Below, in pieces: positions 20,284 through 63,023 of a stretch of DNA of 64,000 nucleotides (the first letter of the stretch is position 1; the number at the start of each line of letters is the position of its first letter). The translations under genes and the position numbers were made by a program. The DNA comes from Pyrinomonadaceae bacterium. GTDB lineage: Bacteria > Acidobacteriota > Blastocatellia > Pyrinomonadales > Pyrinomonadaceae. The DNA is taken from NCBI GenBank assembly GCA_035474235.1, contig DATINM010000051.1, forward strand, positions 40,437 through 104,436, read 5' to 3'. Below the pieces are notes generated by a model, which was given only the letters and a program-made list of their open reading frames with translations, ran no database searches and was not told the DNA's origin.

Positions 20284-20323
20284 GCGACTCACCGCGCGCG
20301 TATCGCCCGTCAGTAAGCGCAGG

Positions 20324-21076
20324 TTAAAGTTTAGCGTCTAGTCTGGCAGCGGCCCTGGCGGAAACCTTTGAATGTAAGTCGGAAAGTGATTCGTAATCGA
20401 GGAAGTTGACTTCGGAGCGGATCGAAGTGAATGCTGTATAACCCATCTTTTTTTGGAATTCACCAAGCCTTGCTTTATCGGCGACGATGTAGAATCTGAT
20501 TTTAAAATCCTGAAACTCGACGAACTTGAGCAGCGAATTTTGAATGTCGGTGGAATGCTCCACTTCAAAAAAGGCTTCCGGGAACTTTCTATTATTGAAC
20601 CAAGAGACATCAACCGTTCTGGCTCTTCTCAGGAGTGAGTCGTAAGTGAAATTATAAAACTCCTTCAGCGTGGCGACCTCCGACAGCCTTCGCTCCAGAA
20701 ACGGTTTGTTCTTGTCTTGATGCGGGACGAAGGTTTCATGGTTCGTCAGGTTTCCAATCTCGATGAGTAGTCCCTGATAGTAGCTATGGTTGAACACTTC
20801 AGGGTTACGCGCATTGGCCTTCTCATCGAGTTTGAGCTTTGACAGCACCGCATCGCGCTCAGACGCGAGTGCCCACAGGCCGGGCCTGATTCTGAAAAAA
20901 TGATTCGGGTATACCTGAACTATGCGGCGGATACTCGCGAACGGCGTCTTCGTTCCCCACCGGCAGCCTTCAATCTTCGTGGCCGTGCGATACAGTTGGC
21001 CGAGCGTGGCGTAACCGCCGTTCTCGCGCATGGCCTGAATGACCGCCTCGTATTGTCTCATCGCGCCGCCTCTCAA
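20324..21076 (-). CDS. Two-domain protein: N-terminal HARE-HTH-like winged helix plus C-terminal PD-(D/E)XK-like nuclease domain (putative)
   Basis: N-terminus YEAVIQAMRENGGYATLGQLYRTA.......TPFASIRRIVQVYPNHFFRIRPGLWAL matches the HARE-HTH pattern. C-terminus has VDVSWF...AFFEVEHSTDI (D...ExE-type nuclease-like motif). It lies 29 nt downstream of the restriction endonuclease (REase) gene on the same strand. Both domain calls are made by eye. Confidence 0.5.
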   Translation of the reverse strand: MRGGAMRQYEAVIQAMRENGGYATLGQLYRTATKIEGCRWGTKTPFASIRRIVQVYPNHFFRIRPGLWALASERDAVLSKLKLDEKANARNPEVFNHSYYQGLLIEIGNLTNHETFVPHQDKNKPFLERRLSEVATLKEFYNFTYDSLLRRARTVDVSWFNNRKFPEAFFEVEHSTDIQNSLLKFVEFQDFKIRFYIVADKARLGEFQKKMGYTAFTSIRSEVNFLDYESLSDLHSKVSARAAARLDAKL

Positions 21077-21105
21077 GCGATAAAATTACTTCGGGCGAGT
21101 ATAAA

Positions 21106-22080: not shown

Positions 22081-22985
22081 CTGTAACCCCCCCCCCCCCC
22101 AACAGTTACGGGCGGATCAAAGGTCAGGCTGTCTTGCCTCTCTCGTGCGACCGTCTCATCCATAATCCTTTTGGCTGCGGCCTCCAAAAAATCCTTGTCT
22201 AACTCAAAGCCTACGAAGTGGCGGCCCGTGCGGGCACAGACCGTGCCCGTAGTGCCGCTGCCGCAGAAAGGGTCGAGGACGAGGTCGTGTGGGTTTGTTG
22301 ACGCGCGGATGATTCGGTCGAGCAGCGCTTCGGGTTTCTGCGTAGGGTGCTTGCCGTATCGTTTCTCGCGCGGGGCGGGAGGCTTTATCTGCCAGAGCGA
22401 TTGCATCTGACGGTCGCGGTTCTCGCGCTTCATCTCCGCGTAGTTGAAGGTGTGACGCGCCTTCGGGTTGCGACGCGCCCAGAGAATCGTCTCGGTCGCG
22501 TGCGTGAAGTAGCGGCAAGAGAGGTTTGGCGGCGGGTTGACCTTGTACCAGGCGATGTCGTTCAGAATCTTGAAGCCGAGCATCTGCATCGCGAATCCGA
22601 CGCTGTAGATGTTATGCGCCGTCCCCGTCACCCAGATGCTCCCGTTCGGCTTGAGCAGGCGGCGGCACTCTTCGAGCCACACGAGATTGAATTTGTGTAT
22701 CTCCTCGAAGGTCGCGGCCTTGTCCCACACGCCCTTATTGACGCTGACCATCCGTCCCGCGTGACACGTGATGCCGTCATTCGAGAGGAAGTAGGGCGGG
22801 TCTGCGAATATCAGGTCGAAGTGCGAGTCCTTAGCCTTCTTCAAAAGTTCGAGCGCGTCGCCGCGATAGAGCCACAGGCCGTGCGCCTTGTCCTCGAAGA
22901 AAGGTGCGGGCGTGTCGTGAGGCATCAACGCTTCCCACGGAGAGTCGTCTGCGGATTCTGAAACTGCCGGACTCGTCGTTGACAT
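21912..22985 (-). CDS. Beta-class N6-adenine (or N4-cytosine) DNA methyltransferase. As sequenced, its 3' end runs 56 codons out of frame into the REase gene.
   Basis: Motif IV FDLIFADPPYFL precedes motif I VLDPFCGSGTTGTVC, which is the beta-class order. After the G14 tract the protein reads GGGGGYRWLTFSF..., an out-of-frame translation of the REase 5' end. Confidence 0.85.
   Translation of the reverse strand: MSTTSPAVSESADDSPWEALMPHDTPAPFFEDKAHGLWLYRGDALELLKKAKDSHFDLIFADPPYFLSNDGITCHAGRMVSVNKGVWDKAATFEEIHKFNLVWLEECRRLLKPNGSIWVTGTAHNIYSVGFAMQMLGFKILNDIAWYKVNPPPNLSCRYFTHATETILWARRNPKARHTFNYAEMKRENRDRQMQSLWQIKPPAPREKRYGKHPTQKPEALLDRIIRASTNPHDLVLDPFCGSGTTGTVCARTGRHFVGFELDKDFLEAAAKRIMDETVARERQDSLTFDPPVTVGGGGGYRWLTFSFMKTASGPSLRMRLSTVLSLSFGLITTPIITWTGKRYSLTSSATGTSFSF
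22087..22100. repeat. Homopolymer: C14 on the plus strand, G14 on the coding strand, at the MTase/REase junction
   Basis: Counted directly: cccc (22087-22090) plus cccccccccc (22091-22100). It ends 6 nt upstream of the REase ATG (22080). Confidence 0.95.
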
Positions 22986-36465: not shown

Positions 36466-36553
36466 AAGTGAGAGTGAAGAGTGATGAGTGATGAGTGATG
36501 AGTAAAAGACAGTTTGCCTTTACTCATCACTCTTCACTCATCACTCTTCACTT
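36466..36553. repeat. Heptamer-built hairpin (GTGATGA/GTGAAGA units) starting 2 nt from the accC start
   Basis: Left arm AAGTGAGAGTGAAGAGTGATGAGTGATGAGTGATGAGTAAA. The reverse complement of the right arm is AAGTGAAGAGTGATGAGTGAAGAGTGATGAGTAAA. Confidence 0.85.
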
Positions 36554-44779: not shown

Positions 44780-44798
44780 GATTGCTTTCCTTTCAAAA

Positions 44799-44879
44799 GC
44801 CGTGAACCTTGAACCGTGAGCCGTGACAAGTGAAGAATCGTTTTCATCTTGTCACTTGTCACGGTTCAAGGTTCACGGC
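44799..44879. repeat. Heptamer-built hairpin (CCGTGA/GTGACAA units) filling the glmU-glmS spacer
   Basis: Left arm GCCGTGAACCTTGAACCGTGAGCCGTGACAAGTGAAGAA. The reverse complement of the right arm is GCCGTGAACCTTGAACCGTGACAAGTGACAAGA. The right arm contains the glmU stop codon. Confidence 0.85.
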
Positions 44880-46351
44880 ATTACCTCTTCTTCCGCAGAC
44901 CTGTTTTCTGATTCGCCCGCGTCGTCTTCGCGCGGCAGTTTCTTCTTGACCTTCGCGGGGACTCCGGCGACGAGCGTGTCGGGCGGAACGTTTTCGGTGA
45001 CGACCGAGCCTGCGCCCGTGACCGAGCGCGAGCCGACGCGCACCGGCGCGACGAGCATCGTGTCGGAGCCGATCTTCACGTCGTCATCGATTGTCGTCGA
45101 GTGCTTCGCGCGTCCGTCGTAGTTGCAGGTGATTGTGCCCGCGCCGATGTTCGTGCGCTCGCCTACTTCGGCGTCGCCGAGGTAAGAGAGGTGCATCGCC
45201 TTCGACTTCGAGCCGAGGCGAGACTTCTTCATCTCGACGAAGTTGCCCACGGTCGAGTTCTCGTCCATCCGCGCGTTCATCCGAAGATGCGCGAAGGGGC
45301 CGATGGTGCAATGGTCTGCGATGTCCGATTCGACTATGACCGAGTGGTCTTTGACGGTGACGCCGTTGCCGACGCGCGAGTCTGTGATGCGCGCGCCCTG
45401 CATTATCTCGCAACCCTCGCCGATTACGGTGCGCCCTTCGACGTGGACGTTCGGGTGGAGCGTCGTGTCGGGGCCAATCTGCGCGTCGGGGCTGACGTAT
45501 GTGTGCTGCGGGTCGATGACGGTGACGCCGCTGTTGAGCATGAGGCTTCGGAGCGTGCGCAGGCGAAGAATGCGCTCGAACTCGGAAAGCTCGACGCGCG
45601 TGTTGATGCCTGAGACTTCGCGCGCGTCCGTGTGCGTGTAAATGCTCACGTCCTCGCCGTCGGCGCGAAGTATCGCGGGCACGTCGGTCAGGTAAAGCTC
45701 GCCCTGCGCGTTCTCCGTCCCGACGCGTTCGAGCGCGGGGAACAGAAGCCGCGTCTCGAAGCAGTAGATTCCGACGTTGACCTCGCCTATATGTTTCTCT
45801 TCGGCGGTCGCGTCCCTCTGCTCGACGATCTTCTCGAAGCGCCCCTCCTCGTCGCGGACGATGCGACCGTAGCCTGTCGGGTCTTCGAGCCGGACGGCCA
45901 TCAGCGTGCAGGCCGCGCCGCGCCCCCGGTGCGTGCGGTGCTGATGCACGAGCGCGCCCAGAGTCTCGGCGCGAACGAGCGGCACGTCGCCGGAGAGGAC
46001 GAGCAGCGTCGAGTCGGCGTCGCCGAGCGCGTCGCGCGCCGCGAAGACTGCGTCGCCCGTGCCGCGCTGCTCGGCCTGTGTGACGAAGACCGCGCCGGCG
46101 TCGCCGAGTTCGGCGCGCACGGCCCCCTTCACTTCGCCCGCCTGATGCCCGACGACGACGTAAACGGGTCGCTCGCCTTTGACGAGCGCGGAGGCCGTGC
46201 GGCAGACGTGCGCGACGAGCGGGCGACCGCCGAGCTTGTGCAGAACCTTCGCCGTTGACGAACGCATACGCGTGCCGAGTCCGGCGGCGAGTATGAGTAT
46301 GTCGAGTGGAGTGCTGACGGGCTGCGAGGGCTGCTGTGGCTGTTTGTCCAT
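44873..46351 (-). CDS. glmU: Bifunctional UDP-N-acetylglucosamine diphosphorylase / glucosamine-1-phosphate N-acetyltransferase
   Basis: ILAAGLGTRMRS...KVLH.LGGRPL N-terminal nucleotidyltransferase domain, left-handed beta-helix hexapeptide repeats, then a basic/acidic C-terminal tail. Confidence 0.95.
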   Translation of the reverse strand: MDKQPQQPSQPVSTPLDILILAAGLGTRMRSSTAKVLHKLGGRPLVAHVCRTASALVKGERPVYVVVGHQAGEVKGAVRAELGDAGAVFVTQAEQRGTGDAVFAARDALGDADSTLLVLSGDVPLVRAETLGALVHQHRTHRGRGAACTLMAVRLEDPTGYGRIVRDEEGRFEKIVEQRDATAEEKHIGEVNVGIYCFETRLLFPALERVGTENAQGELYLTDVPAILRADGEDVSIYTHTDAREVSGINTRVELSEFERILRLRTLRSLMLNSGVTVIDPQHTYVSPDAQIGPDTTLHPNVHVEGRTVIGEGCEIMQGARITDSRVGNGVTVKDHSVIVESDIADHCTIGPFAHLRMNARMDENSTVGNFVEMKKSRLGSKSKAMHLSYLGDAEVGERTNIGAGTITCNYDGRAKHSTTIDDDVKIGSDTMLVAPVRVGSRSVTGAGSVVTENVPPDTLVAGVPAKVKKKLPREDDAGESENRSAEEEVMP

Positions 46352-48823: not shown

Positions 48824-49306
48824 ATGACAGACACACCTATCATAATGCACGAGCAGCAATATCAGCAGCTCGGGCATATCCTGAGCAAGCTGCGTCTCGA
48901 ATCTTTTTCCCGCGTGGTCTTTCTCGTTGACAAGAACGGCCAGCAGATTGCCGCGCAGGGCGACATCGCAGACCTCGACACGACGAGTCTTGCGTCCCTT
49001 GCCGCAGGGAACGTCGCCGCCACAGGCGGGATGGCGCAACTCATCGGCGAGAAGGAGTTTCCCACGCTCTCGCACGAGGGCGAGCGCGAGAGCATACACA
49101 TCTGCATCATCGGTCGTGTGCTGCTCGTCGTGGTCTTCGACGACCGTTCGAGCCTCGGACTCGTCAAGCTGCGCGTCAAGCAGGCGTCGCGTGACCTCTC
49201 GATCCTATTCGCCGAGCTTGAGCGTCTAGCCGAAGAGCGCCGCGAGTCCGACGAGTCGCTCTTCGCCGAGATCACGGACGACGACATTGACAGCCTCTTC
49301 AATTAA
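48824..49306 (+). CDS. mglB: Roadblock/LC7-domain protein, MglB-like GTPase-activating partner
   Basis: VVFLVDKNGQQIAAQGD....TTSLASLAAGNVAATGGMAQLIG and IHICIIGRVLLVVVFD show the Roadblock/LC7 pattern. It lies immediately upstream of mglA. Confidence 0.75.
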   Translation: MTDTPIIMHEQQYQQLGHILSKLRLESFSRVVFLVDKNGQQIAAQGDIADLDTTSLASLAAGNVAATGGMAQLIGEKEFPTLSHEGERESIHICIIGRVLLVVVFDDRSSLGLVKLRVKQASRDLSILFAELERLAEERRESDESLFAEITDDDIDSLFN

Positions 49307-49412
49307 GTTTTGAGTCGAGGGATTAAGGTTCGGAGTCAGGACTGAAACCCTTTCACCGCCCGACTCCGGACTTCTGACCCGTGAACCCAGACCCTTCCGC
49401 CAAGTAAATACT

Positions 49413-49997
49413 ATGACTTTCATCAACTACGCTTCACGAGAGATCAACTGCAAGATCGTTTACTACGGGCCGGGACTGTGCGGCAAGACGACGAACCTGC
49501 AATACATCTACGACGCAACCGCGCCGACGGCGAAGGGCAAGCTCATCTCGTTGGCGACCGAGACCGACCGCACGCTCTTCTTCGACTTCATGCCGCTCGA
49601 ACTCGGCACGGTGCGCGGCTTCAAGACGCGCTTCCATCTCTACACCGTTCCGGGCCAAGTCTTCTACGACGCCTCTCGCAAGCTCATCCTGAAGGGCGTT
49701 GACGGCGTCGTCTTCGTCGCCGACAGTCAGGAAGAGCGCATGGACGCCAACATCGAGTCGCTCTACAATCTCGAAGAGAACCTTCAGGCGAACGGCTACG
49801 ATCTGTCAAAGATTCCATACGTCCTGCAACTGAACAAGCGCGACCTGCCGAACATCATCCCCGCCGAAGAGATGGTCTCCGAACTCAAGCGCAACGGCGA
49901 ACCCGTCCACGAGGCCGTCGCCGCGAACGGCGCGGGCGTCTTCGACACGCTCAAGTCCGTCGCCAAGCAGGTTCTGACCGAGCTACGACGTAGCTGA
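49413..49997 (+). CDS. mglA: Ras-like small GTPase MglA
   Basis: [33 protein letters not shown]...TVPGQVFY...LNKRDLP is a near-canonical MglA sequence. Confidence 0.9.
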
Positions 49998-51793: not shown

Positions 51794-51799
51794 GATAAA

Positions 51800-51872
51800 T
51801 GATGAATGCGGAGTGATGGATGATGAATTATAAAAGCAGACCGGCTTCACATTCATCACTCCGCATTCATCA
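51800..51872. repeat. Hairpin (GATGAATGCGGAGTGATG units) filling the yihY-queA spacer
   Basis: Left arm TGATGAATGCGGAGTGATGGATGATGAAT. The reverse complement of the right arm is TGATGAATGCGGAGTGATGAAT. The left arm has an extra GATGAT-type unit. Confidence 0.85.
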
Positions 51873-51876
51873 ATTT

Positions 51877-55973: not shown

Positions 55974-56070
55974 TGTGAATGGTGAATGGTGAATGGTAAA
56001 TGGTGAATGATGAATGGTGGCGTGACCGGCGCGGTTATCAATTCGCCATTTACCACTTACTATTTACCAG
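55974..56070. repeat. Hairpin of GGTGAAT units filling the ruvA-ruvB spacer
   Basis: TGTGAATGGTGAATGGTGAATGGTAAATGGTGAATGATGAATGGTGG ... CGCCATTTACCACTTACTATTTACCAG. The left arm is about 20 nt longer than the right. Confidence 0.7.
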
Positions 56071-56073
56071 CCT

Positions 56074-56697
56074 TCATCCTTTCGAGAGTTGCCGCAAAGA
56101 GCGTCGCAGGAGCGTCTCGACGGAGAGTTCGCCGCCCTCGCTCATTGCCTGCGCGACGGTCTTCTCTGCTGCCGGACGCGGGAAGCCGAGTTGCAGGAGC
56201 GCCGCAAGCGTGTCCTCGCGCAGAGAGTCTTCCGACTGTCGCGCCCCTGCGGCGACGCCCGCCGCTATCTCTTCGTCGAGAGCGGGCGAACTGAGCGCGG
56301 CCATCTTGTCGCGCAGTTCGATGACGAGCCGCTCGGCGGTCTTGCGCCCGACGCCGGGGATCGAGGTCAGGCGCGCGTAGTTGTTCGTTCGGATCGCCAT
56401 GATGATCTCGTCGGCGCTCATGCCCGATAGCATCGCGACGGCTGACTTGGGGCCGATGCCGCTCACCGAGATCAGAAGCGTGAAGAGTTCGCGCTCGCGC
56501 TCGGTTCGGAAGCCGAAGAGTTGGAGCGCGTCCTCGCGGACGTGCGTGTAGATTCTGAGCTTGACGGGCGCGCCCGCGTCGCCTAGATCGTAGAACGTCG
56601 TGACGGGTATCGTCACTTCGTAGCCGACGCCTCCAACGTCAACGATGACGCTCGTCGCGTGCTTCGCCAGAAGAGTCCCTGATATGTGTGCGATCAT
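56074..56697 (-). CDS. ruvA: Holliday junction DNA-binding protein RuvA
   Basis: MIAHISGTLL......VIVDVGGVGYEV, LISVSGIGPKSA.AMLS, L..IPGVGRKTAERL. Confidence 0.95.
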   Translation of the reverse strand: MIAHISGTLLAKHATSVIVDVGGVGYEVTIPVTTFYDLGDAGAPVKLRIYTHVREDALQLFGFRTERERELFTLLISVSGIGPKSAVAMLSGMSADEIIMAIRTNNYARLTSIPGVGRKTAERLVIELRDKMAALSSPALDEEIAAGVAAGARQSEDSLREDTLAALLQLGFPRPAAEKTVAQAMSEGGELSVETLLRRSLRQLSKG

Positions 56698-56814
56698 CTA
56701 AATTGCTTTGACGGGAGAAGAGATTTCGAGAGCGCCTCACGTACTCGTCGGATTTTAGATGAAGGCAGAGGGTTCGGCAAACGTGCGTCGGTCGCGCGTG
56801 TTGGGAAAGATGAG

Positions 56815-57177
56815 TTACCGGGCGTGTTCGGATTCGAGCTTGTCCATGCGGCCTTCGAGTCGGTTCTGGTCTGCGCGAAGCGTGAGCATGTCGAGGCCAA
56901 GCACGTTCAGCTTACGAGCCATCGTGTCAACCTTCTCGCCGACAGCCATAATCTCTGCAAGCGCGCGTTCCCAAATCGGCTTCGTTTCCATTGCCCTTCG
57001 TTGCGCATCGTCCTCAAGTTTTTGAACGCGCGCGTCTAAGTCGTGAAGCTTCGACTCGACGGCTTCGAGCCGCTTCTCCATTCTGTCGAAGCGCGCATCC
57101 AGTGCGTCGAAGCGTGCGAACACGCGCTCCTCGAAGGAGCGTTCGTCGTTGAGGTCTTTGGTTTTCTCTTCGCCCAT
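56815..57177 (-). CDS. Coiled-coil hypothetical protein
   Basis: 120 aa with heptad-like repeats (RFDALDARFDRMEKRLEAVESKLHDLDARVQKLEDD). Confidence 0.5.
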   Translation of the reverse strand: MGEEKTKDLNDERSFEERVFARFDALDARFDRMEKRLEAVESKLHDLDARVQKLEDDAQRRAMETKPIWERALAEIMAVGEKVDTMARKLNVLGLDMLTLRADQNRLEGRMDKLESEHAR

Positions 57178-57323
57178 AGCGTGATTATGAACCTCGATGC
57201 AATTCTGTTCAAGAGTTGTGCGGGAATCTCAGGCCGCAGCGAGTCTCGGACTCACGCGTCTTTTCTACGCAGCCTCGCGCGCGTTATACTTGGGCCGGTC
57301 TTCCCGGAGAGCAGGGCATTCGG

Positions 57324-58040
57324 ATGAAGTCTGAGAAAATTTCTGAGTTGACGACGAGCAGGTTGAGCGTCTATCTGCGCTGCCTGAATCTTCTCGCCGC
57401 CGCCGGGGTGAAGACCGTCTCGTCGCAGGCGCTCGCAGACCAGTTCCGCCTGAACTCGGCGCAGATACGCAAAGACCTCGCCCACTTCGGCGAGTTCGGC
57501 ACGCGCGGCGTCGGCTACTCGGTCGAAGAGCTTCGCCGCCACCTTACGCAGATTCTCGGCCTCGACCGCGCACACAGGGTCGGCATCGTCGGCGCAGGCA
57601 ACCTTGGGACTGCGCTCGCAAACTACAGAGGCTTCGGCGAGTCGAGCTTCGAGGTCGTCGCGCTCTTCGACAACGACCGCGGGAAGATCGGGCGCGAGGT
57701 CGGGCAGGCGCGAGTCCGCGTCTTCGACGTTAAGACGCTCGCGCGCGTCGTTCGCGAACGCGAGATTGACGTTTCGGTCGTCGCCGTTCCGGCGCGCGCC
57801 GCACAGCGCGTGTTGAATCAAATCATGTCGGCTGGCGTAAAGGCCGTCTTGAATTTTGCGCCCGTCCGCCTTCACGCGCGTTTGGGCGTGAAGGTGAAGA
57901 CGGTTGACTTGACGATTTCTTTGGAGTCACTATCGTACTTCCTCGCGCGACCTCAGATAACTTGCGTCACGAACCCGCGCGGCCTTCTCTACTTCGAGGA
58001 GACGGCTCAGCGCGAAGAACAAGAGTTGCAGCAAAGCTGA
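57324..58040 (+). CDS. rex: Redox-sensing transcriptional repressor Rex
   Basis: RLSVYLRCLNLL...VSSQALAD.F.LNSAQIRKDLAHFGEFGTRGVGYSVEEL, then Rossmann motif VGIVGAGNLGTALANY. The start was trimmed to the ATG at 57324. Confidence 0.9.
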   Translation: MKSEKISELTTSRLSVYLRCLNLLAAAGVKTVSSQALADQFRLNSAQIRKDLAHFGEFGTRGVGYSVEELRRHLTQILGLDRAHRVGIVGAGNLGTALANYRGFGESSFEVVALFDNDRGKIGREVGQARVRVFDVKTLARVVREREIDVSVVAVPARAAQRVLNQIMSAGVKAVLNFAPVRLHARLGVKVKTVDLTISLESLSYFLARPQITCVTNPRGLLYFEETAQREEQELQQS

Positions 58041-58057
58041 CAAGGAGTTCAGAAGTC

Positions 58058-58516
58058 ATGCATCCCTGCTTGCTAAAAAAACTTTTGCCGTTCGCTTTAA
58101 CTTTCATCGTCGGCGCGACGATTGGCGGGCTGTTCAAGTCTCGCGTGACGACGCAGACTTCGACGGAGCGCACGACGCTGATGATTGACCACAACGGCTA
58201 CGGCCATAGTTGCCGGATGTACCGCCGCGACCTCGTAGCTGAGACGAAGCCGCTCGTCATTTTCTTTAAGCCCGACGCCTTGTTGTCATACAGGGAAGAG
58301 ATGGGTAAAGAGGGAAGAAACACTGTATCAGTGAATGTGACCTTCGGCGCTGACGGAAAAGTGCAAAAGGTCGAGAATCTTCCGCCATTGATGCCTGACG
58401 TAATGAAACAGGCTGTCGAGCGCGCAGCGCGGCAGATTCAGTTCACGCCGGAGATAATCAACAGTGTGCCCATCACCGTCACGAGAGAAGTCGAGATACA
58501 TTTCATGACCGACTGA
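58058..58516 (+). CDS. Membrane-anchored protein with a TonB-C-like C-terminal domain (tentative)
   Basis: N-terminal TM segment (LLPFALTFIVGATIGGLF). The C-terminus, VNVTFGADGKVQKVENL....AVERAARQIQFTPEIINSVPITV, resembles the TonB C-terminal fold. Confidence 0.45.
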   Translation: MHPCLLKKLLPFALTFIVGATIGGLFKSRVTTQTSTERTTLMIDHNGYGHSCRMYRRDLVAETKPLVIFFKPDALLSYREEMGKEGRNTVSVNVTFGADGKVQKVENLPPLMPDVMKQAVERAARQIQFTPEIINSVPITVTREVEIHFMTD

Positions 58517-58542
58517 TCGGCTGTGAAGTTGGACGAATCCTG

Positions 58543-59364
58543 ATGGACGAGCAGACAGCCCGGCGCGAGATCGTGCGCGTCGGCAAGTTGATGTACGAGC
58601 GTTCATACGTCGTCTCTTCGGACGGCAACGTGAGCGTGCGCCTCGAAGACGGTCGCATACTCGCCACGCCGACGCAGACCTCGAAGGGACGCATGACGGA
58701 AGACTCGCTCGCCGTCACCGACATCGAAGGCAAGCCCTTGAACGACCGCCGCGCGTCGTCGGAGCTTGCGATGCACCTTCTCATCTACCGCGAGCGCGAA
58801 GACGTTCGCTCGGTCTGCCACGCGCATCCGCCGCACGGCTCGGCCTTCGCCGTCGCCGGACTCGCGATTGACCAGCCGATTCTCTCCGAAGTTATCTTAA
58901 CTCTCGGTTGCGTCCCGCTCGCAGAGTACGGCACGCCCTCGACCGACGAGTTGACCGAGGCGATGCGCCCGCTCGTCCGGCACCACAACGCTCTGCTGAT
59001 GGCGAATCATGGCGCGGTCGCATACGGCGCGGATTTGTGGCAGGCTTTCGACCGGCTCGAAACACTCGAACACACGGCGAAGATCGCCATCCTCGCGCGA
59101 ACGCTCGGCGGCGCGCGCAACCTCCCGCCCGACTCGATTGAGAAACTGATCAACGTCCGCGAGAAGGCCGGATACCTCGACGAAAGCGCGCGCTGCCAGT
59201 CGTGCGGCTACCTGCACGAGACGCAAGTGGTTTGCCCCTTGGGCGAGCGCGACGCGGCGCAAGCCACGCGCGCGGCGAACGGCGCGGGCGCGAACGGCAA
59301 GATAAGTCTGACGCGTGAAGAGTTGATAGAGCTTCTCAGTCAGGCGTCGCGGGCCGCGAGGTGA
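58543..59364 (+). CDS. Class II aldolase/adducin-family enzyme with a C-terminal extension of about 60 aa
   Basis: S.DGNVSVR, TPTQTSKG.MT, SSELAMHLLIYRERED..SVCHAHPPHG and LMANHGAVAYG show the Zn-His pattern of class II aldolases. The tail carries CQSCGY..VVCP and ends in the amphipathic ISLTREELIELLSQASRAAR. Confidence 0.8.
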   Translation: MDEQTARREIVRVGKLMYERSYVVSSDGNVSVRLEDGRILATPTQTSKGRMTEDSLAVTDIEGKPLNDRRASSELAMHLLIYREREDVRSVCHAHPPHGSAFAVAGLAIDQPILSEVILTLGCVPLAEYGTPSTDELTEAMRPLVRHHNALLMANHGAVAYGADLWQAFDRLETLEHTAKIAILARTLGGARNLPPDSIEKLINVREKAGYLDESARCQSCGYLHETQVVCPLGERDAAQATRAANGAGANGKISLTREELIELLSQASRAAR

Positions 59365-59540
59365 GAGCCGGTGAAGTCGCGGCGACGGGTCGAAGACAAA
59401 TTCATCAAGGCGTCTAATCACGCATCGGATCACTTCGGGTTCTGCCTCACACATCGCTTCGCAAAAGGAGGCTCGACATCCCTAGCCGCCTGCTCAAACA
59501 GTCCGAGATTGACTTCGCGCGACAGGTCTTCGAGGATCAG

Positions 59541-59987
59541 TTGCCGTATAACAAGGTGCATCTGGCGAGTTACTATCTGCCCGGCAATCAGGGCATCGCC
59601 GTCACGCTCGCGTCCGTCTCGACGCTGATCCCCGTGCGCTCTTTGAGGAACTACACGATCTACTTCGGCCCGGACGTTTTCCGCGACGGCGCGGATCGCC
59701 CCGGCGTGCGCGACACCTTCATACACGAGCTTACGCACGTGTGGCAGGGATACAACGGCGGACTCGGCTGGGAGTACATGGTCGAGTCCATGATCGCGCA
59801 GGGGCACGCCGTCATCACGCGGGGCGACCGGAATCGCGCTTACGACTACAAGCCCGGCGCGGACTGGAACAGCTACAACGTCGAGCAACAGGCGCTCATC
59901 GTGCAGGACTGGTTCCAAAACGGCATGAGGGAAGACGACGAAAGATATTCTTACGTCGTCAACAACATTCGCGCAGGCCGGAATTAA
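59541..59987 (+). CDS. Small HExxH protein (DUF4157-like metallopeptidase fold, tentative); the true start is probably upstream
   Basis: FIHELTHVWQG preceded by ...VHLASYY....GIAVTL.....YTIYFGPDVF. The frame is open back to 59418, with AAGGAGG at 59465-59471. Confidence 0.55.
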   Translation: MPYNKVHLASYYLPGNQGIAVTLASVSTLIPVRSLRNYTIYFGPDVFRDGADRPGVRDTFIHELTHVWQGYNGGLGWEYMVESMIAQGHAVITRGDRNRAYDYKPGADWNSYNVEQQALIVQDWFQNGMREDDERYSYVVNNIRAGRN

Positions 59988-60082
59988 CCGTCAGTTCGGA
60001 AAATTGATGCGAGGCTCATAACGCACGGCGCTTCCGACTGCGAAACGAGAGCAGCCGCACTCCTGCTCGCCTCCCGGCGCTC

Positions 60083-60325
60083 ATGTTTGATAGGATACTC
60101 AACGTCATCTTTCTGTTTGCGGGTAACGCGGCGTTCTGGCTGCTGATTCTAAGCAGGCGTGCGCGAAGATTCGTCATCAAAGGTTGGATAAGAAGATACG
60201 GGACGAATGATGCCGGAGAAGAGATCAAGACGGGCGAACTCGTTATCCTCTGCATGGCGGTCGTAGGCGAAATGGCTTTCATCCTGTTGACGGTCGCCGT
60301 CATCTTCGGATTCTTGAGAAGATAA
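60083..60325 (+). CDS. Possible small two-TM membrane protein
   Basis: 80-aa ORF with two hydrophobic segments (ILNVIFLFAGNAAFWLLIL and LVILCMAVVGEMAFILLTVAVIFGF). It is AT-richer than its surroundings and has no clear SD. Confidence 0.35.
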   Translation: MFDRILNVIFLFAGNAAFWLLILSRRARRFVIKGWIRRYGTNDAGEEIKTGELVILCMAVVGEMAFILLTVAVIFGFLRR

Positions 60326-60387
60326 CGTCGCCCGCGCTGAGACGAGGAAAGCATTTTCAAATTAACTTTGGTTAAGGAGCACATCGA

Positions 60388-60672
60388 ATGCCTCAAGAAG
60401 CACTCGGAATGGTCGAGACGAAGGGACTCGTGGCGATGATCGAGGCCGCGGACGCGATGGTGAAGGCTGCGAACGTCACGCTCGTCGGCTACGAGAAGAT
60501 CGGCGCGGGCTTCGTTACGGCAATCGTGCGCGGCGATGTTGCGGCTGTGAAGGCCGCGACCGACGCCGGAGCGGCAGCCGCACGCCGTGTCGGCGAACTC
60601 GTCAGCGTCCACGTCATCCCGCGCCCGCACGGAAGCGTTGACGAGGCGCTTCCGGTCGGCGGCGACAGATAA
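60388..60672 (+). CDS. Bacterial microcompartment shell protein, single-BMC-domain hexamer type (BMC-H)
   Basis: [76 protein letters not shown] is a canonical PduA/EutM/CcmK-like sequence. AAGGAG SD. Confidence 0.92.
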
Positions 60673-60676
60673 AAGC

Positions 60677-60750
60677 AGTGATAAGTGATGAGTGATGAGT
60701 GATAAGAAGAAAGCTTTTAACTCATCACTCATCACTCATCACTCATCACT
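60677..60750. repeat. Heptamer-built hairpin (GTGATGA/GTGATAA units) filling the BMC-H / BMC-P spacer
   Basis: AGTGATAAGTGATGAGTGATGAGTGATAAGAAG ... CTCATCACTCATCACTCATCACTCATCACT. Same unit family as the elements at 6152 and 36466. Confidence 0.85.
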
Positions 60751-60755
60751 TTCCA

Positions 60756-61028
60756 ATGATTATCGCGCGCATACTCGGAACGGTCGTCTCGACGCAGAAG
60801 GACGAGCGGCTGAAGGGCAACAAGCTCCTTCTCGTCCGGCCCCTGAACCTCGACGGCTCGGACGGCGCAGGCTACGTCGTCGCCGTCGATACGGTCGGCG
60901 CGGGATTCCACGAACGCGTGCTTGTCGTCGCAGGCTCCAGCGCGCGACTCGCCGAAGGCTTGAAGGACAAGCCCGTTGACGCCGCCATCATCGGCGTCAT
61001 CGACACTGTGGATTTCGTTAACGATTAG
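60756..61028 (+). CDS. BMC vertex pentamer protein (EutN/CcmL family, BMC-P) paralog 1
   Basis: MIIARILGTVVSTQKDERLKGNKLLLVRPL...VAVDTVGAGFHERVLVVAGSSAR......VDAAIIGVIDTVD. The start was trimmed to the ATG at 60756. Confidence 0.87.
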   Translation: MIIARILGTVVSTQKDERLKGNKLLLVRPLNLDGSDGAGYVVAVDTVGAGFHERVLVVAGSSARLAEGLKDKPVDAAIIGVIDTVDFVND

Positions 61029-61132
61029 CTGTCAGCACTCAGCTTCCGTCTTGCTCCGAAGTCGAGCGGCGAGATGAAAGGCTTTTGACTGAGTGAAAAA
61101 AGTTGAATGCCGACCGCTGAGTGCTGAAAGCT
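61027..61132. repeat. 17-bp inverted repeat bracketing the BMC-P1/BMC-P2 spacer
   Basis: AGCTGTCAGCACTCAGC (61027-61043) faces GCTGAGTGCTGAAAGCT (61116-61132), with one mismatch and about 72 nt between the arms. Confidence 0.55.
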
Positions 61133-61135
61133 TCC

Positions 61136-61423
61136 ATGCAACTTGCGCGCGTAATCGGCAACGTCGTGGCGACAGTGAAGAACGATTCGCTGGAAGGAAG
61201 AAAGCTTCTCGTCGTGCAGTCGCTCAACGCGGATTTGAAGCCGCAGGGTGCGCCCCTCGTCGCGCTCGACGCAATCGGCGCCGGGATAGGCGAACTCGTT
61301 TTCTGGTGTCGAGGCAAAGAGGCGAGCTTTCCCTTCAGACGTGAAGACACGCCGACCGACTGCACGATCATCGGCATCGTCGATTCGGACGAACACGTGT
61401 CGAGAGGGAGGCGTCCGAGATGA
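61136..61423 (+). CDS. BMC vertex pentamer protein (EutN/CcmL family, BMC-P) paralog 2
   Basis: MQLARVIGNVVATVKNDSLEGRKLLVVQSL...VALDAIGAGIGELVFWCRG.EA.......DCTIIGIVDS. Confidence 0.85.
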   Translation: MQLARVIGNVVATVKNDSLEGRKLLVVQSLNADLKPQGAPLVALDAIGAGIGELVFWCRGKEASFPFRREDTPTDCTIIGIVDSDEHVSRGRRPR

Positions 61424-61710
61424 TTCTTGCGCGCGTGCTCGGCAACGTCGTGGCGACGCAGAAGAACGCGCGCTACGAGAACGCGCGCGTGATGCTCTGC
61501 CAGCCGGTGACGCCGGAGGGAGAGGAGTGGGGCGCGACCTTGCTCGCGCTCGACTCGGTTGACGCGGGCGAGGGCGATCTTGTGTTAGTCGTGCAGGAAG
61601 GTTGGAGCGCCTCGACCGCCGCGACGGGCGAACAGGGCGCGGCGATTGACTCGGCCATCGTCGGGGTCGTTGACCGCGTTGACCTGCTCGAAGAGGAAGC
61701 GAAGGGATGA
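61420..61710 (+). CDS. BMC vertex pentamer protein (EutN/CcmL family, BMC-P) paralog 3
   Basis: MILARVLGNVVATQKNARYENARVMLCQPV...LALDSVDAGEGDLVLVVQEG.......IDSAIVGVVDRVD. ATGA overlap with paralog 2. Confidence 0.85.
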   Translation: MILARVLGNVVATQKNARYENARVMLCQPVTPEGEEWGATLLALDSVDAGEGDLVLVVQEGWSASTAATGEQGAAIDSAIVGVVDRVDLLEEEAKG

Positions 61711-62171
61711 GCAGCGAGCAGGACAGGGTGCGCGAACTGGCGGAGCGCGTCGCGCGCAAGCTCTCGAACGAGCCGGCGAGCGGCTCGCGTGCCGAGGGCG
61801 AGGGCGACGAACTGGGCTTGCTCCGCGCGAGCCTCGCGGAGATTCGACGACGCCTCGACGACATCGAATCTCAAACGTCGCGCGGACACGACGGCACCGC
61901 GGCGCGACAGTCGAGCATCGGCGAAGAGAAGCGAGTCTCCGCGTCTCCGGCACAAGCATCCGCGCCGCACGCGCAGACGCCGACGCGCTCGATGTGGCTG
62001 AGCGGCACTTACATGCCCGCGACGGAGCATCCGAGTCAGGAGCAGTTCACCGGGATAGGCGAGGCCGTCTCGGAACTCGTCGAATTCTTCGAGCGCGAGA
62101 AGACCTGCAACGTCGAACCGGGCGGCAAGCCATGCGACCACTGCGGCCTTTGTAGCTCGCGCGGTTTTTAG
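61707..62171 (+). CDS. Hypothetical BMC-locus protein with an N-terminal amphipathic helix and a C-terminal CX8CX2CX2C motif
   Basis: ATGA overlap with BMC-P3. Contains DRVRELAERVARKL and LLRASLAEIRRRLDDIE helices, a disordered middle, and C-terminal CNVEPGGKPCDHCGLCSSRGF. Confidence 0.55.
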   Translation: MSSEQDRVRELAERVARKLSNEPASGSRAEGEGDELGLLRASLAEIRRRLDDIESQTSRGHDGTAARQSSIGEEKRVSASPAQASAPHAQTPTRSMWLSGTYMPATEHPSQEQFTGIGEAVSELVEFFEREKTCNVEPGGKPCDHCGLCSSRGF

Positions 62172-62211
62172 ATGGAGGCGCGTGTCAGCGCGGGGTTAAT
62201 CATAAAGAATT

Positions 62212-62248
62212 AAAGGCTCGGAGAAAGCTGCTGGCTTTCTCCGAGCCT
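62212..62248. terminator. Perfect 16-bp hairpin between the convergent BMC operon end and lemA
   Basis: AAGGCTCGGAGAAAGC / TGCTG / GCTTTCTCCGAGCCTT. Confidence 0.65.
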
Positions 62249-62369
62249 TCGTGCGTGACGCTACGTACCGCGTCAGTTGCGTCCGTAATTCTGTCAAAGC
62301 CGTCTCGTGTTTTATCGCCGTGGGATTATTTCTTCCGCGGCGCGCGCCGGCCCTTTAATTCGCCTCTTC

Positions 62370-63023
62370 TCATTTCGTATTCGCGTCGCTTTGACCGCCC
62401 TGGTTGCGGCGCAACGTGTCGCCATTTAGCTTTGGCGCTTCGCGCGCGCCGGCTTCGGCCTGGAAGTAAGGCTCCTCTTTAAAGCCGTACATTTTGGCGG
62501 CGATGACCATCGGGAACTGTCCGCGCGAAGTGTTGTAATCCTTCACAGCCGCGTTGTAGTCCTCGCGGGCGACCTGTATGCGGTTCTCCGTGCCCTCAAC
62601 CGCGTCCTGAACCTTCTGAAAGCTCTCGGTTGAGCGCAACTCCGGGTACTGCTCGGCGAGTGACAGAAGCCGTCCGACCGTCCCGCCGAAGCTGTTCGCG
62701 GCATCAATCACGGCCTGCTTCTGCTCCGGCGTCTTGTCGCCGTTCTCACCCTGTGGCGGCGCGCCAGTCGCGTTCAAAAGTCGCGAGCGCGCCTCGGCGA
62801 TCTGCCCGAAGACCTCTTGCTCTTGTATGCTCGCGGCGCGCGCCGCCTCAAATGTATTCGGCAGTAGGTCTGCGCGTCGCTGTAGCTGCGATTCTACGTT
62901 CGACCATCTCTCTTTAACGGACTGTTGCTTCGAGACGAGCGTGTTGTAGCCGCAGCCGCCCGAAGTGAAAGCGACGAGCATGACGGCGGCGAGCAATAAC
63001 ATTCTTCTTCTATTCATCAGCAT
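62370..63023 (-). CDS. lemA: LemA-family protein
   Basis: N-terminal TM/lipobox-like segment (LLAAVMLVAFTSGGCGYN), WSNVESQLQRRADLLPN, YNAAVKDYNT are LemA hallmarks. Confidence 0.9.
   Translation of the reverse strand: MLMNRRRMLLLAAVMLVAFTSGGCGYNTLVSKQQSVKERWSNVESQLQRRADLLPNTFEAARAASIQEQEVFGQIAEARSRLLNATGAPPQGENGDKTPEQKQAVIDAANSFGGTVGRLLSLAEQYPELRSTESFQKVQDAVEGTENRIQVAREDYNAAVKDYNTSRGQFPMVIAAKMYGFKEEPYFQAEAGAREAPKLNGDTLRRNQGGQSDANTK

What the first reader, a model, noticed from the sequence alone, without database searches (positions are those of the whole stretch)
58543..62171. Compact aldolase-linked microcompartment locus: 1 BMC-H plus 3 BMC-P, with no BMC-T and no aldehyde dehydrogenase or phosphotransacylase core in view
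Seen in sequence:
- One canonical single-domain BMC-H (60388-60672).
- Three divergent EutN/CcmL pentamer paralogs (60756-61028, 61136-61423, 61420-61710).
- The last three ORFs of the locus are chained by ATGA stop/start overlaps.
- Co-oriented upstream genes are a class II aldolase with a tail, an HExxH protein and a small 2-TM ORF. Downstream is a Cys-motif protein.

Not seen anywhere in the 64 kb: BMC-T, acylating aldehyde dehydrogenase, PduL/Pta-type phosphotransacylase, alcohol dehydrogenase, or any signature enzyme other than the aldolase.

Established knowledge: metabolosome loci normally encode that core. Triplicated BMC-P together with a class II aldolase is known from planctomycetal PVM-type and some related loci. 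Acidobacterial BMC loci are catalogued but functionally uncharacterised.

Inference: this is either a minimal organelle of unknown chemistry or a satellite shell locus.
Basis: partly seen in the sequence, partly recalled or inferred. Interest (0 to 1): 0.85.

Follow-up and report, generated by a model that had tools for sequence, protein, structure and literature searches.

The report
Known acidobacterial microcompartment locus (ACI type)
This is a real protein-shelled organelle gene cluster from a soil Acidobacterium, but it belongs to the "ACI" microcompartment type catalogued in 2021. In that type the "missing" aldehyde dehydrogenase is reported at a separate site in the genome, so the locus is not a new minimal organelle.

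Summary
**Observation: confirmed.**
- Pfam calls one BMC-H, three EutN/CcmL pentamer genes and a class II aldolase at the stated coordinates.
- Nothing else in the 64 kb matches an aldehyde dehydrogenase, phosphotransacylase, alcohol dehydrogenase, 2-hydroxyacid dehydrogenase or BMC-T.

**Identity.**
- The source is a Pyrinomonadaceae (Blastocatellia) MAG.
- The locus fits the main locus of the ACI type of Sutter et al. 2021: 125 loci, Acidobacteria only, AldDh reported on a satellite locus.
- The matching features are an aldolase with a C-terminal encapsulation peptide, a BMC-H with KAAN/PRPH motifs, an adjacent BMC-P triplet, and a small protein with an N-terminal encapsulation peptide and a Cys-rich C-terminus.
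- The ACI hydroxyacid dehydrogenase is absent here and from 83 related loci.

**Conservation.**
- 153 species-level genomes encode the Cys protein.
- The conserved order is Rex, a TonB_C-like gene, aldolase, a variable slot, BMC-H, P1, P2, P3 and the Cys protein.

- The HExxH gene is accessory. It occurs in 23 of 76 loci and is a VgrG2b/Tpe-family metallopeptidase.
- The 2-TM ORF is an ORFan.

**Additional observation.** A stable hairpin fills the BMC-H→P1 spacer in 68 of 69 loci and covers the P1 start region. This plausibly keeps pentamer expression low.

**Not testable here:** the satellite AldDh.

**Verdict:** a new member of a known, functionally uncharacterised kind.

The parts
57321..58040 (+). 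Rex, the redox-sensing (NADH/NAD+) transcriptional repressor. It is co-oriented and 17 nt upstream of the next gene.
   Evidence: NCBIfam Rex models score above cut-off: 254.8 bits vs 126, and 241 vs 217. Pfam finds Put_DNA-bind_N + CoA_binding. Rex is present immediately upstream in every related locus that covers the region. No canonical Rex box was found.
58058..58516 (+). Small membrane-anchored TonB_C-like protein (152 aa), 26 nt upstream of the aldolase. It is a conserved neighbour and probably not a BMC component.
   Evidence: Pfam TonB_C 1.2e-06. Homologs occupy the Rex-to-aldolase gap in 54 of 67 loci.
58543..59364 (+). Class II aldolase, the signature enzyme. It has a catalytic domain (aa 8-182), a conserved C-x2-C-x10-C motif (aa 218-231, within nt 59191-59235), a variable linker, and a C-terminal amphipathic encapsulation peptide (aa 252-273, nt 59296-59361).
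   Evidence: Pfam 5.5e-46. Motifs like the FucA metal and catalytic sites, SSE74, H93xH95 and H156, are present by inspection. The tail alignment of 75 orthologs shows three invariant Cys and GKISLTREELIELLSQA. The highest hydrophobic moment lies at 259-273. Best NCBIfam hits are OtnC (144 bits) and FucA (106 bits), both below the 250-bit cut-offs. Best PDB hits are 'aldolase' 6VOQ and FucA.
59478..59987 (+). Accessory gene: a VgrG2b-C-terminal/Tpe-family gluzincin metallopeptidase (169 aa) with HExxH at aa 83-87 and the third ligand E136. The probable start is a non-canonical ATC.
   Evidence: The profile hits PDB 6H56 at E 2.1e-14 with the Zn site aligned. AF2 pLDDT is 88. Foldseek gives 6H56 prob 1.0 and TM 0.61. 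The gene is present in only 23 of 76 loci. The family has 1101 representatives, some with PG_binding_1 or hemopexin fusions.
60083..60325 (+). 80-aa ORF with two hydrophobic helices. It is an ORFan and its coding status is uncertain. It sits where an immunity gene would be expected.
   Evidence: There is no tblastn match in 83 loci. The only hit among 5.8 billion proteins is itself, VLJ61_09400. In 15 other loci this position holds a ~200-aa lipoprotein.
60388..60672 (+). BMC-H, the basal hexamer and bulk shell facet protein, with KAAN (aa 26) and PRPH (aa 78) interface motifs and a strong SD (AAGGAG).
   Evidence: Pfam 7.6e-31. NCBIfam EutM scores 142 bits vs a cut-off of 133. It is 93-100% identical across 76 loci. 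Motifs were located. An SD-like site is present in 69 of 69 loci.
60677..60750 (+). Intercistronic hairpin whose arms are tandem heptamers (AGTGATG)n/(CATCACT)n. It fills the BMC-H-to-P1 spacer and ends 5 nt before the P1 ATG.
   Evidence: MFE is -42.2 kcal/mol with z -8.6. An equivalent hairpin occurs in 68 of 69 loci (median -46.8 kcal/mol, z -8.4) with different repeat sequences. The 3' end lies a median of 5 nt from the P1 start, and no SD precedes P1 in 0 of 69 loci.
60756..61028 (+). BMC-P paralog 1 (90 aa).
   Evidence: Pfam EutN_CcmL 5.8e-30. Orthologs are 82-96% identical in all loci.
61027..61132 (+). Second intercistronic structured spacer, between P1 and P2.
   Evidence: MFE is -49.3 kcal/mol with z -4.7. 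75% of the P1-P2 spacers that could be folded (15-400 nt) have z below -3.
61136..61423 (+). BMC-P paralog 2 (95 aa).
   Evidence: Pfam 9.4e-31.
61420..61710 (+). BMC-P paralog 3 (96 aa), translationally coupled to P2 by an ATGA overlap.
   Evidence: Pfam 2e-22. The overlap is confirmed.
61707..62171 (+). Small EP-tagged Cys-rich protein (154 aa). Its parts are an N-terminal amphipathic helix (aa 3-20), a second long helix (aa 32-59), a disordered linker, and a conserved C-terminal domain (W97...H108...C134-x8-C143-D-H145-C146-x2-C149...F154). It is coupled to P3 by an ATGA overlap.
   Evidence: Alignments A2 and A3 show the invariant residues. AF2 predicts the helices, with the rest at low confidence. 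The maximum hydrophobic moment lies at aa 5-21. There are 1444 homolog clusters, and 153 species genomes encode a relative. No Pfam, NCBIfam or PDB relatives were found.
62212..62250 (.). Strong 16-17-bp GC-rich hairpin terminator between the convergent Cys-protein and LemA genes. It marks the end of the transcription unit.

Best explanation
Window 58543-62171 is the main locus of an ACI-type (Acidobacteria) bacterial microcompartment in a Pyrinomonadaceae genome.

Shown here:
- The conserved core is six genes. They are an EP-tagged class II aldolase, one basal BMC-H, three adjacent divergent BMC-P paralogs, and a small EP-tagged protein with a Cys4/His C-terminal domain.
- All six are co-oriented behind rex and a TonB_C-like gene, and the unit ends at a strong terminator.
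- The HExxH gene is a VgrG2b/Tpe-family metallopeptidase. The 2-TM ORF follows it. Both lie in a variable slot between the aldolase and BMC-H that holds unrelated genes, or nothing, in other genomes. They are not core parts.

Taken from the catalogue, not tested here:
- The aldehyde dehydrogenase that completes the metabolosome carries its own EP and is encoded at a satellite locus.

Inferred mechanism:
1. A phosphorylated sugar derivative of the fuculose/rhamnulose-1-phosphate kind enters the shell.
2. The encapsulated aldolase cleaves it to DHAP plus an aldehyde such as lactaldehyde.
3. The co-encapsulated AldDh oxidises that aldehyde to an acyl-CoA.
4. The Cys-rich protein, and possibly the 3-Cys tail of the aldolase, bind a metal or Fe-S centre. 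Their role would be redox or cargo-organising.

Expression stoichiometry also appears to be built into the transcript:
- BMC-H has a strong SD.
- P1 has none, and its start is buried under a conserved hairpin.
- P2, P3 and the Cys protein are translationally coupled.
- Together this would give many hexamers and few pentamers.
For: Domain calls.

Feature-by-feature match to the published ACI description:
- Acidobacteria-only taxonomy. The 100% identical Cys protein is annotated Pyrinomonadaceae, and all 80 best genome loci are Pyrinomonadaceae/Acidobacteriota. Blastocatellia BMC-P are labelled 'ACI (main)' in the catalogue tree.
- An aldolase with a C-terminal amphipathic helix after a flexible linker.
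- KAAN/PRPH motifs in BMC-H.
- An adjacent BMC-P triplet.
- A small protein with an N-terminal EP and conserved Cys residues.
- No AldDh or PTAC in the locus.

Other support:
- Gene order is invariant in 76 loci, with 77-100% identity for the shell proteins, which argues for function.
- The accessory status of the HExxH and 2-TM genes rests.
- The identity of the HExxH protein rests.
- The hairpin and SD pattern rests.
Against: - The ACI hydroxyacid dehydrogenase (PF00389/PF02826) is absent from the window and from the +/-10 kb around 83 related loci.
- The Cys protein is 137-165 aa rather than ~80 aa, and it has four rather than three invariant Cys.
- The satellite AldDh could not be looked for in this genome, so the complete pathway is assumed from the catalogue.
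- The aldolase falls below every NCBIfam equivalog cut-off. Its best model is a decarboxylase (OtnC), not FucA. The substrate, and even aldehyde production, are therefore inferred.
- No Rex operator was found.
- Encapsulation, shell assembly and the effect of the hairpin are untested.
Confidence: 0.82

Rival explanations
1. This is a self-sufficient minimal organelle. In Pyrinomonadaceae the six-gene core (aldolase, Cys protein, 1 BMC-H, 3 BMC-P) works without any encapsulated aldehyde dehydrogenase. It might confine an aldolase or decarboxylase reaction or a metal/Fe-S-dependent step.
For: - No AldDh, PTAC, AlcDh or hydroxyacid dehydrogenase lies within the 64 kb or within +/-10 kb of 83 related loci.
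- The catalogue says the satellite AldDh occurs in 'most', not all, ACI genomes.
- The aldolase is closest to a decarboxylase model, OtnC, which releases CO2 and not an aldehyde.
- Conserved Cys clusters occur in two EP-tagged proteins.
Against: [quoted passage not shown] Absence from the main locus is therefore the expected state.
- The rest of the genome could not be inspected.
- Every characterised aldolase-type metabolosome (PVM, GRM5) pairs the aldolase with an AldDh. This point rests on established knowledge.
Confidence: 0.1
2. This is a satellite shell locus. The genes supplement a complete canonical BMC locus elsewhere in the genome.
For: The enzyme core is missing from view.
Against: - The locus holds the full shell set (H plus the P triplet) and the EP-tagged signature enzyme. 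That combination defines a main locus.
- The same compact cluster is conserved across the 76 related loci compared, out of 153 species genomes that encode the Cys protein.
Confidence: 0.03
3. The HExxH protein, and the ORF after it, are genuine microcompartment components. They would be the catalogue's 'unknown protein with 3 conserved histidines', for example a lumenal metallo-enzyme or a shell- or cargo-processing protease. They would not be a hitch-hiking effector/immunity-like module.
For: - The catalogue lists a His-rich unknown protein among the ACI main-locus genes.
- The gene is co-oriented inside the operon.
- Its active-site residues are invariant in 27 homologs.
Against: - It is present in only 23 of 76 loci.
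- The same slot is empty in 49 loci (gap of 440 nt or less). Elsewhere it holds unrelated genes such as an SPFH-like protein, zinc-ribbon proteins and a secreted protein.
- It has no EP-like extension. Its N-terminal helix is part of the confidently folded domain.
- It is clearly homologous to a periplasm-acting T6SS toxin domain.
- Its downstream partner is a lipoprotein in 15 loci, as for the Tpi immunity proteins.
- A decayed lipoprotein remnant is visible in L027.
Confidence: 0.15

Closest known systems
ACI bacterial microcompartment type (Sutter, Melnicki, Schulz, Woyke & Kerfeld 2021, Nat Commun 12:3809; 125 loci)
   Same: - It is found only in Acidobacteria, with subdivision 4 prominent.
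- It has a PF00596 aldolase with a C-terminal EP.
- It has one basal BMC-H with standard interface motifs.
- It has an adjacent BMC-P triplet.
- It has a small protein with an N-terminal EP and conserved C-terminal cysteines.
- The main locus has no AldDh or PTAC.
   Different: - There is no hydroxyacid dehydrogenase (PF00389/PF02826) in or near the locus.
- The Cys protein is about twice the stated length and has four invariant Cys.
- The 'three-His' protein is optional in this family.
- A conserved rex gene lies upstream, which the ACI description read here does not mention.
PVM / PVM-like metabolosome of Planctomycetes and Verrucomicrobia (L-fucose/L-rhamnose catabolism)
   Same: - The signature enzyme is a class II aldolase.
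- It has a BMC-P triplet.
- The implied chemistry is cleavage of a sugar phosphate to DHAP plus lactaldehyde inside the shell.
   Different: - PVM loci encode AldDh, PTAC, acetate kinase and a lactate/malate-type dehydrogenase in the same locus.
- The phyla differ.
- The catalogue calls the ACI aldolase 'quite distinct', nearest to the HO/MIC3 aldolases.
VgrG2b C-terminal domain / Tpe1-Tpi1 metallopeptidase effector-immunity family (Wood et al. 2019, PMC6899460; PDB 6H56). This applies to the HExxH gene only.
   Same: - It has a gluzincin fold.
- The HExxH motif and the distal Glu ligand are conserved and align.
- A small envelope-targeted ORF lies directly downstream: a lipoprotein in 15 loci and a membrane ORF here.
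   Different: - The protein is a stand-alone 169-aa protein, not fused to VgrG.
- No T6SS genes are in view.
- Several loci keep the peptidase without any downstream gene.
- Homology of the downstream genes to Tpi/PA0261 was not tested.
Intercistronic stem-loops that set differential expression within operons (REP elements in E. coli malEFG, the Rhodobacter puf operon). This comparison rests on established knowledge.
   Same: A very stable hairpin lies directly after the gene whose product is needed in excess (BMC-H) and before genes needed in few copies (BMC-P).
   Different: - The arms here are tandem heptamer repeats whose sequence differs between genomes.
- The hairpin also covers the ribosome-binding region of the next gene.
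- The effect on mRNA or translation is untested.

Membership tests
ACI BMC type (Sutter 2021) | Occurs only in Acidobacteria, mainly subdivisions 4 and 6. | tested here: met
   The Cys protein is 100% identical to NCBI VLJ61_09425 from a Pyrinomonadaceae bacterium. All 80 best genome loci are Pyrinomonadaceae/Acidobacteriota. Blastocatellia BMC-P are labelled ACI (main) in the catalogue tree.
ACI BMC type (Sutter 2021) | A PF00596 class II aldolase with a C-terminal encapsulation peptide. | tested here: met
   Pfam 5.5e-46. A conserved C-terminal amphipathic helix, GKISLTREELIELLSQA, follows a variable Ala/Gly/Pro linker. The highest hydrophobic moment lies at aa 259-273. Encapsulation itself was not tested.
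ACI BMC type (Sutter 2021) | A hydroxyacid dehydrogenase (PF00389/PF02826) in the main locus. | tested here: not met
   No such Pfam domain occurs in any sizeable ORF of the window. SerA tblastn finds nothing in the window or in 83 related loci.
ACI BMC type (Sutter 2021) | A triplet of BMC-P genes encoded next to each other. | tested here: met
   Three PF03319 genes lie at 60756-61710 and are 36-39% identical to each other. Assignment to the green, grey and orange clades was not tested.
ACI BMC type (Sutter 2021) | [quoted passage not shown] | tested here: met
   PF00936 7.6e-31. KAAN is at aa 26 and PRPH at aa 78.
ACI BMC type (Sutter 2021) | [quoted passage not shown] | tested here: met
   Helix 3-20 has the highest hydrophobic moment. 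C134, C143, C146 and C149 are invariant. The length is 154 aa against the stated ~80 aa, and there are four rather than three Cys.
ACI BMC type (Sutter 2021) | An unknown protein with three conserved histidines. | tested here: inconclusive
   The HExxH protein has two invariant His plus Glu ligands. It is present in only 23 of 76 related loci. Whether it is the catalogue's protein could not be checked.
ACI BMC type (Sutter 2021) | A PF00171 AldDh with a near-C-terminal EP on a satellite locus. | not testable with these tools
   Only the 64-kb window and +/-10 kb around related loci are readable. No AldDh occurs there. No route to the rest of the genome was available.
ACI BMC type (Sutter 2021) | Assignment by the catalogue's own HMM set or BMC Caller. 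| not tested
   The HMM library is not available. The EP HMM supplement is truncated before the aldolase models.
PVM / PVM-like metabolosome | AldDh, PduL-type PTAC and accessory enzymes encoded with the aldolase and shell genes. | tested here: not met
   None occur in the window.
Satellite BMC locus | Shell genes that lie remote from the signature enzyme and the main shell set. | tested here: not met
   The EP-tagged signature aldolase, the only BMC-H and all BMC-P genes are together here.
VgrG2b-Cter / Tpe metallopeptidase family (HExxH gene) | A gluzincin fold with HExxH plus a distal Glu zinc ligand. | tested here: met
   Profile against 6H56 gives E 2.1e-14. H83/E84/H87/E136 align to H935/E936/H939/E983. 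Foldseek gives prob 1.0 and TM 0.61.
VgrG2b-Cter / Tpe metallopeptidase family (HExxH gene) | A cognate envelope-located immunity gene immediately downstream, and T6SS delivery. | tested here: inconclusive
   A lipoprotein lies downstream in 15 loci, nothing in 8, and an ORFan 2-TM ORF here. No T6SS genes are in view. Homology to PA0261/Tpi1 was not tested.

The most novel reading that the evidence does not exclude
In Pyrinomonadaceae the ACI locus may have been pared down to a six-gene organelle that works without an encapsulated aldehyde dehydrogenase. The EP-tagged aldolase-family enzyme may be a decarboxylase-like member. Together with the EP-tagged Cys4 protein it could form a metal/Fe-S-linked lumenal system under Rex (NADH/NAD+) control. 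That would be a BMC chemistry outside the metabolosome paradigm.
Probability: 0.08. Interest if true: 0.75.

Novelty: new member of a known kind. Interest (0 to 1): 0.3.

Why it matters
**Scope.** ACI microcompartments occur in a dominant soil phylum. No functional study of them turned up in the literature searched. This instance adds no new kind of system.

**What the comparison of 76 loci contributes.**
- It defines the invariant core that any functional model must explain: aldolase, BMC-H, three BMC-P and the Cys4 protein.
- It removes two distracting genes from that model.
- It shows that the hydroxyacid dehydrogenase is not universal in ACI.
- It points to testable features:
  - a 3-Cys motif in the aldolase tail;
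  - a Cys4/His domain in the small EP protein;
  - conserved rex adjacency;
  - a conserved hairpin and SD arrangement that could set the hexamer:pentamer ratio.

**Practical value.** A four-gene shell set (60388-61710) from a soil Acidobacterium is a compact candidate for heterologous shell assembly.

Tried and rejected
- **Satellite AldDh.** Looking for it in the source genome was not possible. The exact-protein look-up for the aldolase found no record. Look-ups for the Cys protein and the 2-TM ORF returned only short Logan contigs of SRR9656163. The genome-contig scan is limited to +/-10 kb around matches.
- **Shared domain in the AldDh.** I considered that the ~50-aa domain after the AldDh EP might be homologous to the Cys-protein C-terminus. 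It could not be tested, because only the best 120 of 1444 hits are listed and all of those are small proteins.
- **Rex operator.**
  - TTGTGAAN4TTCACAA with up to 3 mismatches has no match in the window.
  - No TGTGA-N4-10-TCACA and no recurrent palindrome occurs upstream of rex in 65 loci.
  - Rex regulation of the locus therefore rests on adjacency only.
- **Fold of the Cys protein.** AF2 gave pLDDT 60 with the C-terminal domain unresolved, so no fold search was run. The profile search against PDB gave only coiled-coil noise.
- **Rfam.** Over 56000-62600 there were only sub-threshold miRNA-like hits on the hairpin.
- **EP HMMs of the catalogue.** The stored file is cut before the aldolase/ACI models.
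- **A frame error of my own.** My first TonB_C-like query started at 58059, out of frame, and gave false negatives. It was corrected to 58058.
- **Rejected readings.** PVM membership, because the core enzymes are absent. Satellite-locus status, because the signature enzyme and full shell set are present.

Full report
**1. Observation**

- Class II aldolase, 58543-59364: E 5.5e-46 over aa 8-182, followed by a ~90-aa tail.
- One single-domain BMC-H, 60388-60672: 7.6e-31.
- Three EutN/CcmL genes, 60756-61028, 61136-61423 and 61420-61710: 5.8e-30, 9.4e-31 and 2e-22.

The pentamer paralogs share only 36-39% identity. The two ATGA overlaps exist.

The rest of the window is housekeeping. It includes ribosomal proteins, pyrH/frr, glmS/glmU, accC, mutL, bshC, a DpnII restriction-modification pair and ruvAB.
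- Pfam scans of the plausible ORFs found no aldehyde dehydrogenase, PduL- or Pta-type phosphotransacylase, Fe- or Zn-alcohol dehydrogenase, 2-hydroxyacid dehydrogenase or second BMC-domain gene.
- tblastn with E. coli EutE, EutD, EutG, EutL, EutS and SerA hit nothing.

**2. Source and relatives**

- The Cys-motif protein is 100% identical to NCBI VLJ61_09425 of a Pyrinomonadaceae MAG.
- Homologs of the HExxH protein are also from Pyrinomonadaceae.
- A scan of one genome per GTDB species with the Cys-protein alignment found 153 genomes that encode a relative. The 80 best are all Pyrinomonadaceae/Acidobacteriota.

**3. What it is**

Sutter et al. 2021 (PMC8217296) define the ACI type:
- It has 125 loci, found exclusively in Acidobacteria and mainly in subdivisions 4 and 6.
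- The main locus has a PF00596 aldolase with a C-terminal EP, a hydroxyacid dehydrogenase, a BMC-P triplet and at least one BMC-H.
- It also has three unknown proteins. One is short, with an N-terminal EP and conserved C-terminal cysteines. Another has three conserved histidines.
[quoted passage not shown] It carries an EP followed by a ~50-aa domain.
- Blastocatellia pentamers are labelled ACI (main) in the catalogue tree.

The window matches this description in every respect but one:
- BMC-H carries KAAN and PRPH.
- The aldolase ends in a conserved amphipathic helix, GKISLTREELIELLSQA, after a variable linker. That helix is the segment of highest hydrophobic moment in the protein.
- The 154-aa downstream protein starts with a predicted amphipathic helix at aa 3-20. 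It ends in an invariant H108...C134-x8-C143-D-H145-C146-x2-C149...F154 domain.

The exception is the hydroxyacid dehydrogenase. It is absent here and from all 83 related loci within +/-10 kb.

I therefore file this as an ACI main locus of a Pyrinomonadaceae flavour. It is not a new minimal organelle and not a satellite.

**4. Core versus accessory**

tblastn synteny over 76 loci gives an invariant frame:
- ruvB and ruvA on the minus strand;
- then rex, a small TM-anchored TonB_C-like gene, aldolase, a variable slot, BMC-H, P1, P2, P3 and the Cys protein on the plus strand;
- then lemA on the minus strand.

The TonB_C-like gene is recognisable in 54 of 67 loci.

The aldolase-to-BMC-H slot varies between genomes:
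- It is 440 nt or less in 49 loci.
- It contains the HExxH gene in 23 loci. In 15 of these a ~200-aa lipoprotein follows it.
- In other genomes it holds unrelated genes: an SPFH-like protein, zinc-ribbon proteins and a secreted protein.

The 2-TM ORF of the window has no homolog in any related locus. Its only match among 5.8 billion proteins is itself.

**5. The HExxH protein**

- Homologs are 169 aa. In the window the homologous N-terminus is in frame from an ATC at 59478, 7 nt after AAGGAGG. No ATG, GTG or TTG occurs before 59541.
- A 27-sequence profile hits the effector domain of P. aeruginosa VgrG2b (PDB 6H56) at E 2.1e-14. H83/E84/H87/E136 sit on the zinc site H935/E936/H939/E983.
- The AF2 model (pLDDT 88) matches 6H56 with probability 1.0 and TM 0.61.
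- The wider family has 1101 representatives at 50% identity. Some are fused to PG_binding_1 or hemopexin repeats.
- Wood et al. 2019 show that such effectors are followed by a small immunity ORF. That ORF is periplasmic, a lipoprotein, or anchored by an N-terminal TM helix.

The peptidase + lipoprotein arrangement in 15 loci, a decayed lipoprotein remnant in L027, and the membrane ORF here fit that pattern. This is by analogy only.

The protein has no EP-like extension. I consider it a hitch-hiker in a variable slot. The alternative, a genuine BMC component and the catalogue's His-rich protein, keeps about 0.15.

**6. New details of the core**

- *Aldolase tail.* It carries three invariant cysteines (ARCQxCGYL-x-ETxxxC, aa 218-231) between the catalytic domain and the EP. 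The ACI description read here does not mention them.
- *Aldolase subfamily.*
  - FucA-like metal and acid/base motifs are present by inspection.
  - The protein scores below all NCBIfam equivalog cut-offs.
  - Its best model is 3-oxo-tetronate-4-phosphate decarboxylase (144 bits), ahead of FucA (106 bits).
  - The substrate is therefore open.
- *BMC-H to P1 hairpin.*
  - The spacer (median 88 nt) folds into a very stable hairpin in 68 of 69 loci (median -46.8 kcal/mol, z -8.4).
  - The arms are tandem heptamers whose sequence differs between genomes.
  - The aldolase-to-BMC-H spacer shows this in only 6% of loci.
  - The hairpin begins a median of 2 nt after the BMC-H stop and ends a median of 5 nt before the P1 start.
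  - An SD-like tetramer precedes BMC-H in 69 of 69 loci and P1 in 0 of 69.
- *Downstream genes.* A second structured spacer separates P1 and P2. P2, P3 and the Cys protein are chained by ATGA overlaps. A 16-17-bp terminator hairpin closes the unit.

I infer a built-in expression gradient of many hexamers and few pentamers. It would work through RBS occlusion and possibly through protection of the upstream mRNA. This is untested. Hairpins of the same class occur in other intercistronic spacers of the window, so they are a genomic element class and not BMC-specific.

**7. Regulation**

- Rex is a confident call and is always adjacent and co-oriented.
- RuvAB and LemA are just as conserved, so the adjacency may simply reflect family-level synteny.
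- No Rex box was found.
- Control of the BMC by Rex is a hypothesis only.

**8. Mechanism, by analogy with PVM and GRM5**

1. A sugar phosphate is cleaved in the lumen by the EP-tagged aldolase to DHAP plus an aldehyde.
2. An EP-tagged AldDh encoded elsewhere oxidises the aldehyde.
3. The Cys4 protein supplies a metal or Fe-S function, or organises cargo. It combines an EP, a long helix, a disordered linker and a metal-binding domain.

What is shown: the gene content, the conservation, and the EP-like helices.
What is inferred: the substrate, the AldDh partner, and the role of the Cys protein.

**9. Limits**

- The satellite AldDh could not be sought, because only the window and +/-10 kb around related loci are readable.
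- No functional study of ACI microcompartments turned up in the literature searched.

**10. Verdict**

- The system is a new member of a known, functionally uncharacterised type.
- Interest is modest (0.3). It comes mainly from the refined core definition and the testable expression and metal-site features.

Noticed in passing
window 59415-59541: The VgrG2b-like metallopeptidase gene appears to start at a non-canonical ATC (59478), 7 nt after a perfect AAGGAGG. Homologs start with Met, Val or Leu at exactly this position. No ATG, GTG or TTG lies between the upstream stop (59415) and 59541.
   Followed up: partly
window 6152-6222, 9134-9209, 36471-36552, 44796-44882, 51797-51875, 55980-56069, 60673-60761: A genome-wide class of intergenic hairpins has arms made of tandem heptamer repeats (AGTGATG, GTTTTCA, TGGTGAA, CGTGAAC and others). 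Most lie between co-directional genes such as pyrH-frr, glmU-glmS and ruvA-ruvB. Related genomes use different heptamers at the same positions. No Rfam family matches.
   Followed up: partly
L040 7552-8625, L049 1138-2240, L050 7522-8626, L067 7583-8274, L066 8249-8689, L058 8235-8577, L044 1464-1807: The aldolase-to-BMC-H spacer is an insertion hot spot. In different Pyrinomonadaceae genomes it holds an SPFH/band-7-like protein, zinc-ribbon proteins or a signal-peptide protein instead of the metallopeptidase. L060 carries a remnant of the SPFH-like gene.
   Followed up: partly
L027, ~35-130 nt after the metallopeptidase gene: A 31-aa ORF here is a decayed remnant of the lipoprotein gene that follows the metallopeptidase in 15 other loci. 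Eight loci, counting the window, keep the peptidase without the lipoprotein.
   Followed up: no
window 20001-22985: A DpnII-type restriction endonuclease (21106-22080, minus strand) and an N6/N4 DNA methylase (21912-22985, minus strand) lie in or next to a low-GC patch (0.52 against ~0.62). This is probably a horizontally acquired R-M system.
   Followed up: no
window 16236-17789: A malic enzyme has a weak N-terminal ACT-domain match. The BMC catalogue lists an ACT-domain HMM shared by the ACI and MIC3 types. This gene is 40 kb from the locus and no link is shown.
   Followed up: no
window 48824-49997: An adjacent Roadblock/LC7 protein and a small Arf/Ras-like GTPase form an MglB/MglA-like pair. 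They are conserved upstream of the locus in L001 and L002.
   Followed up: no
window 12002-15019 and 24218-27163: Two ~1000-aa proteins have only weak Pfam matches: a partial DUF6079 match, and a patatin-like phospholipase N-terminus. They are otherwise uncharacterised.
   Followed up: no
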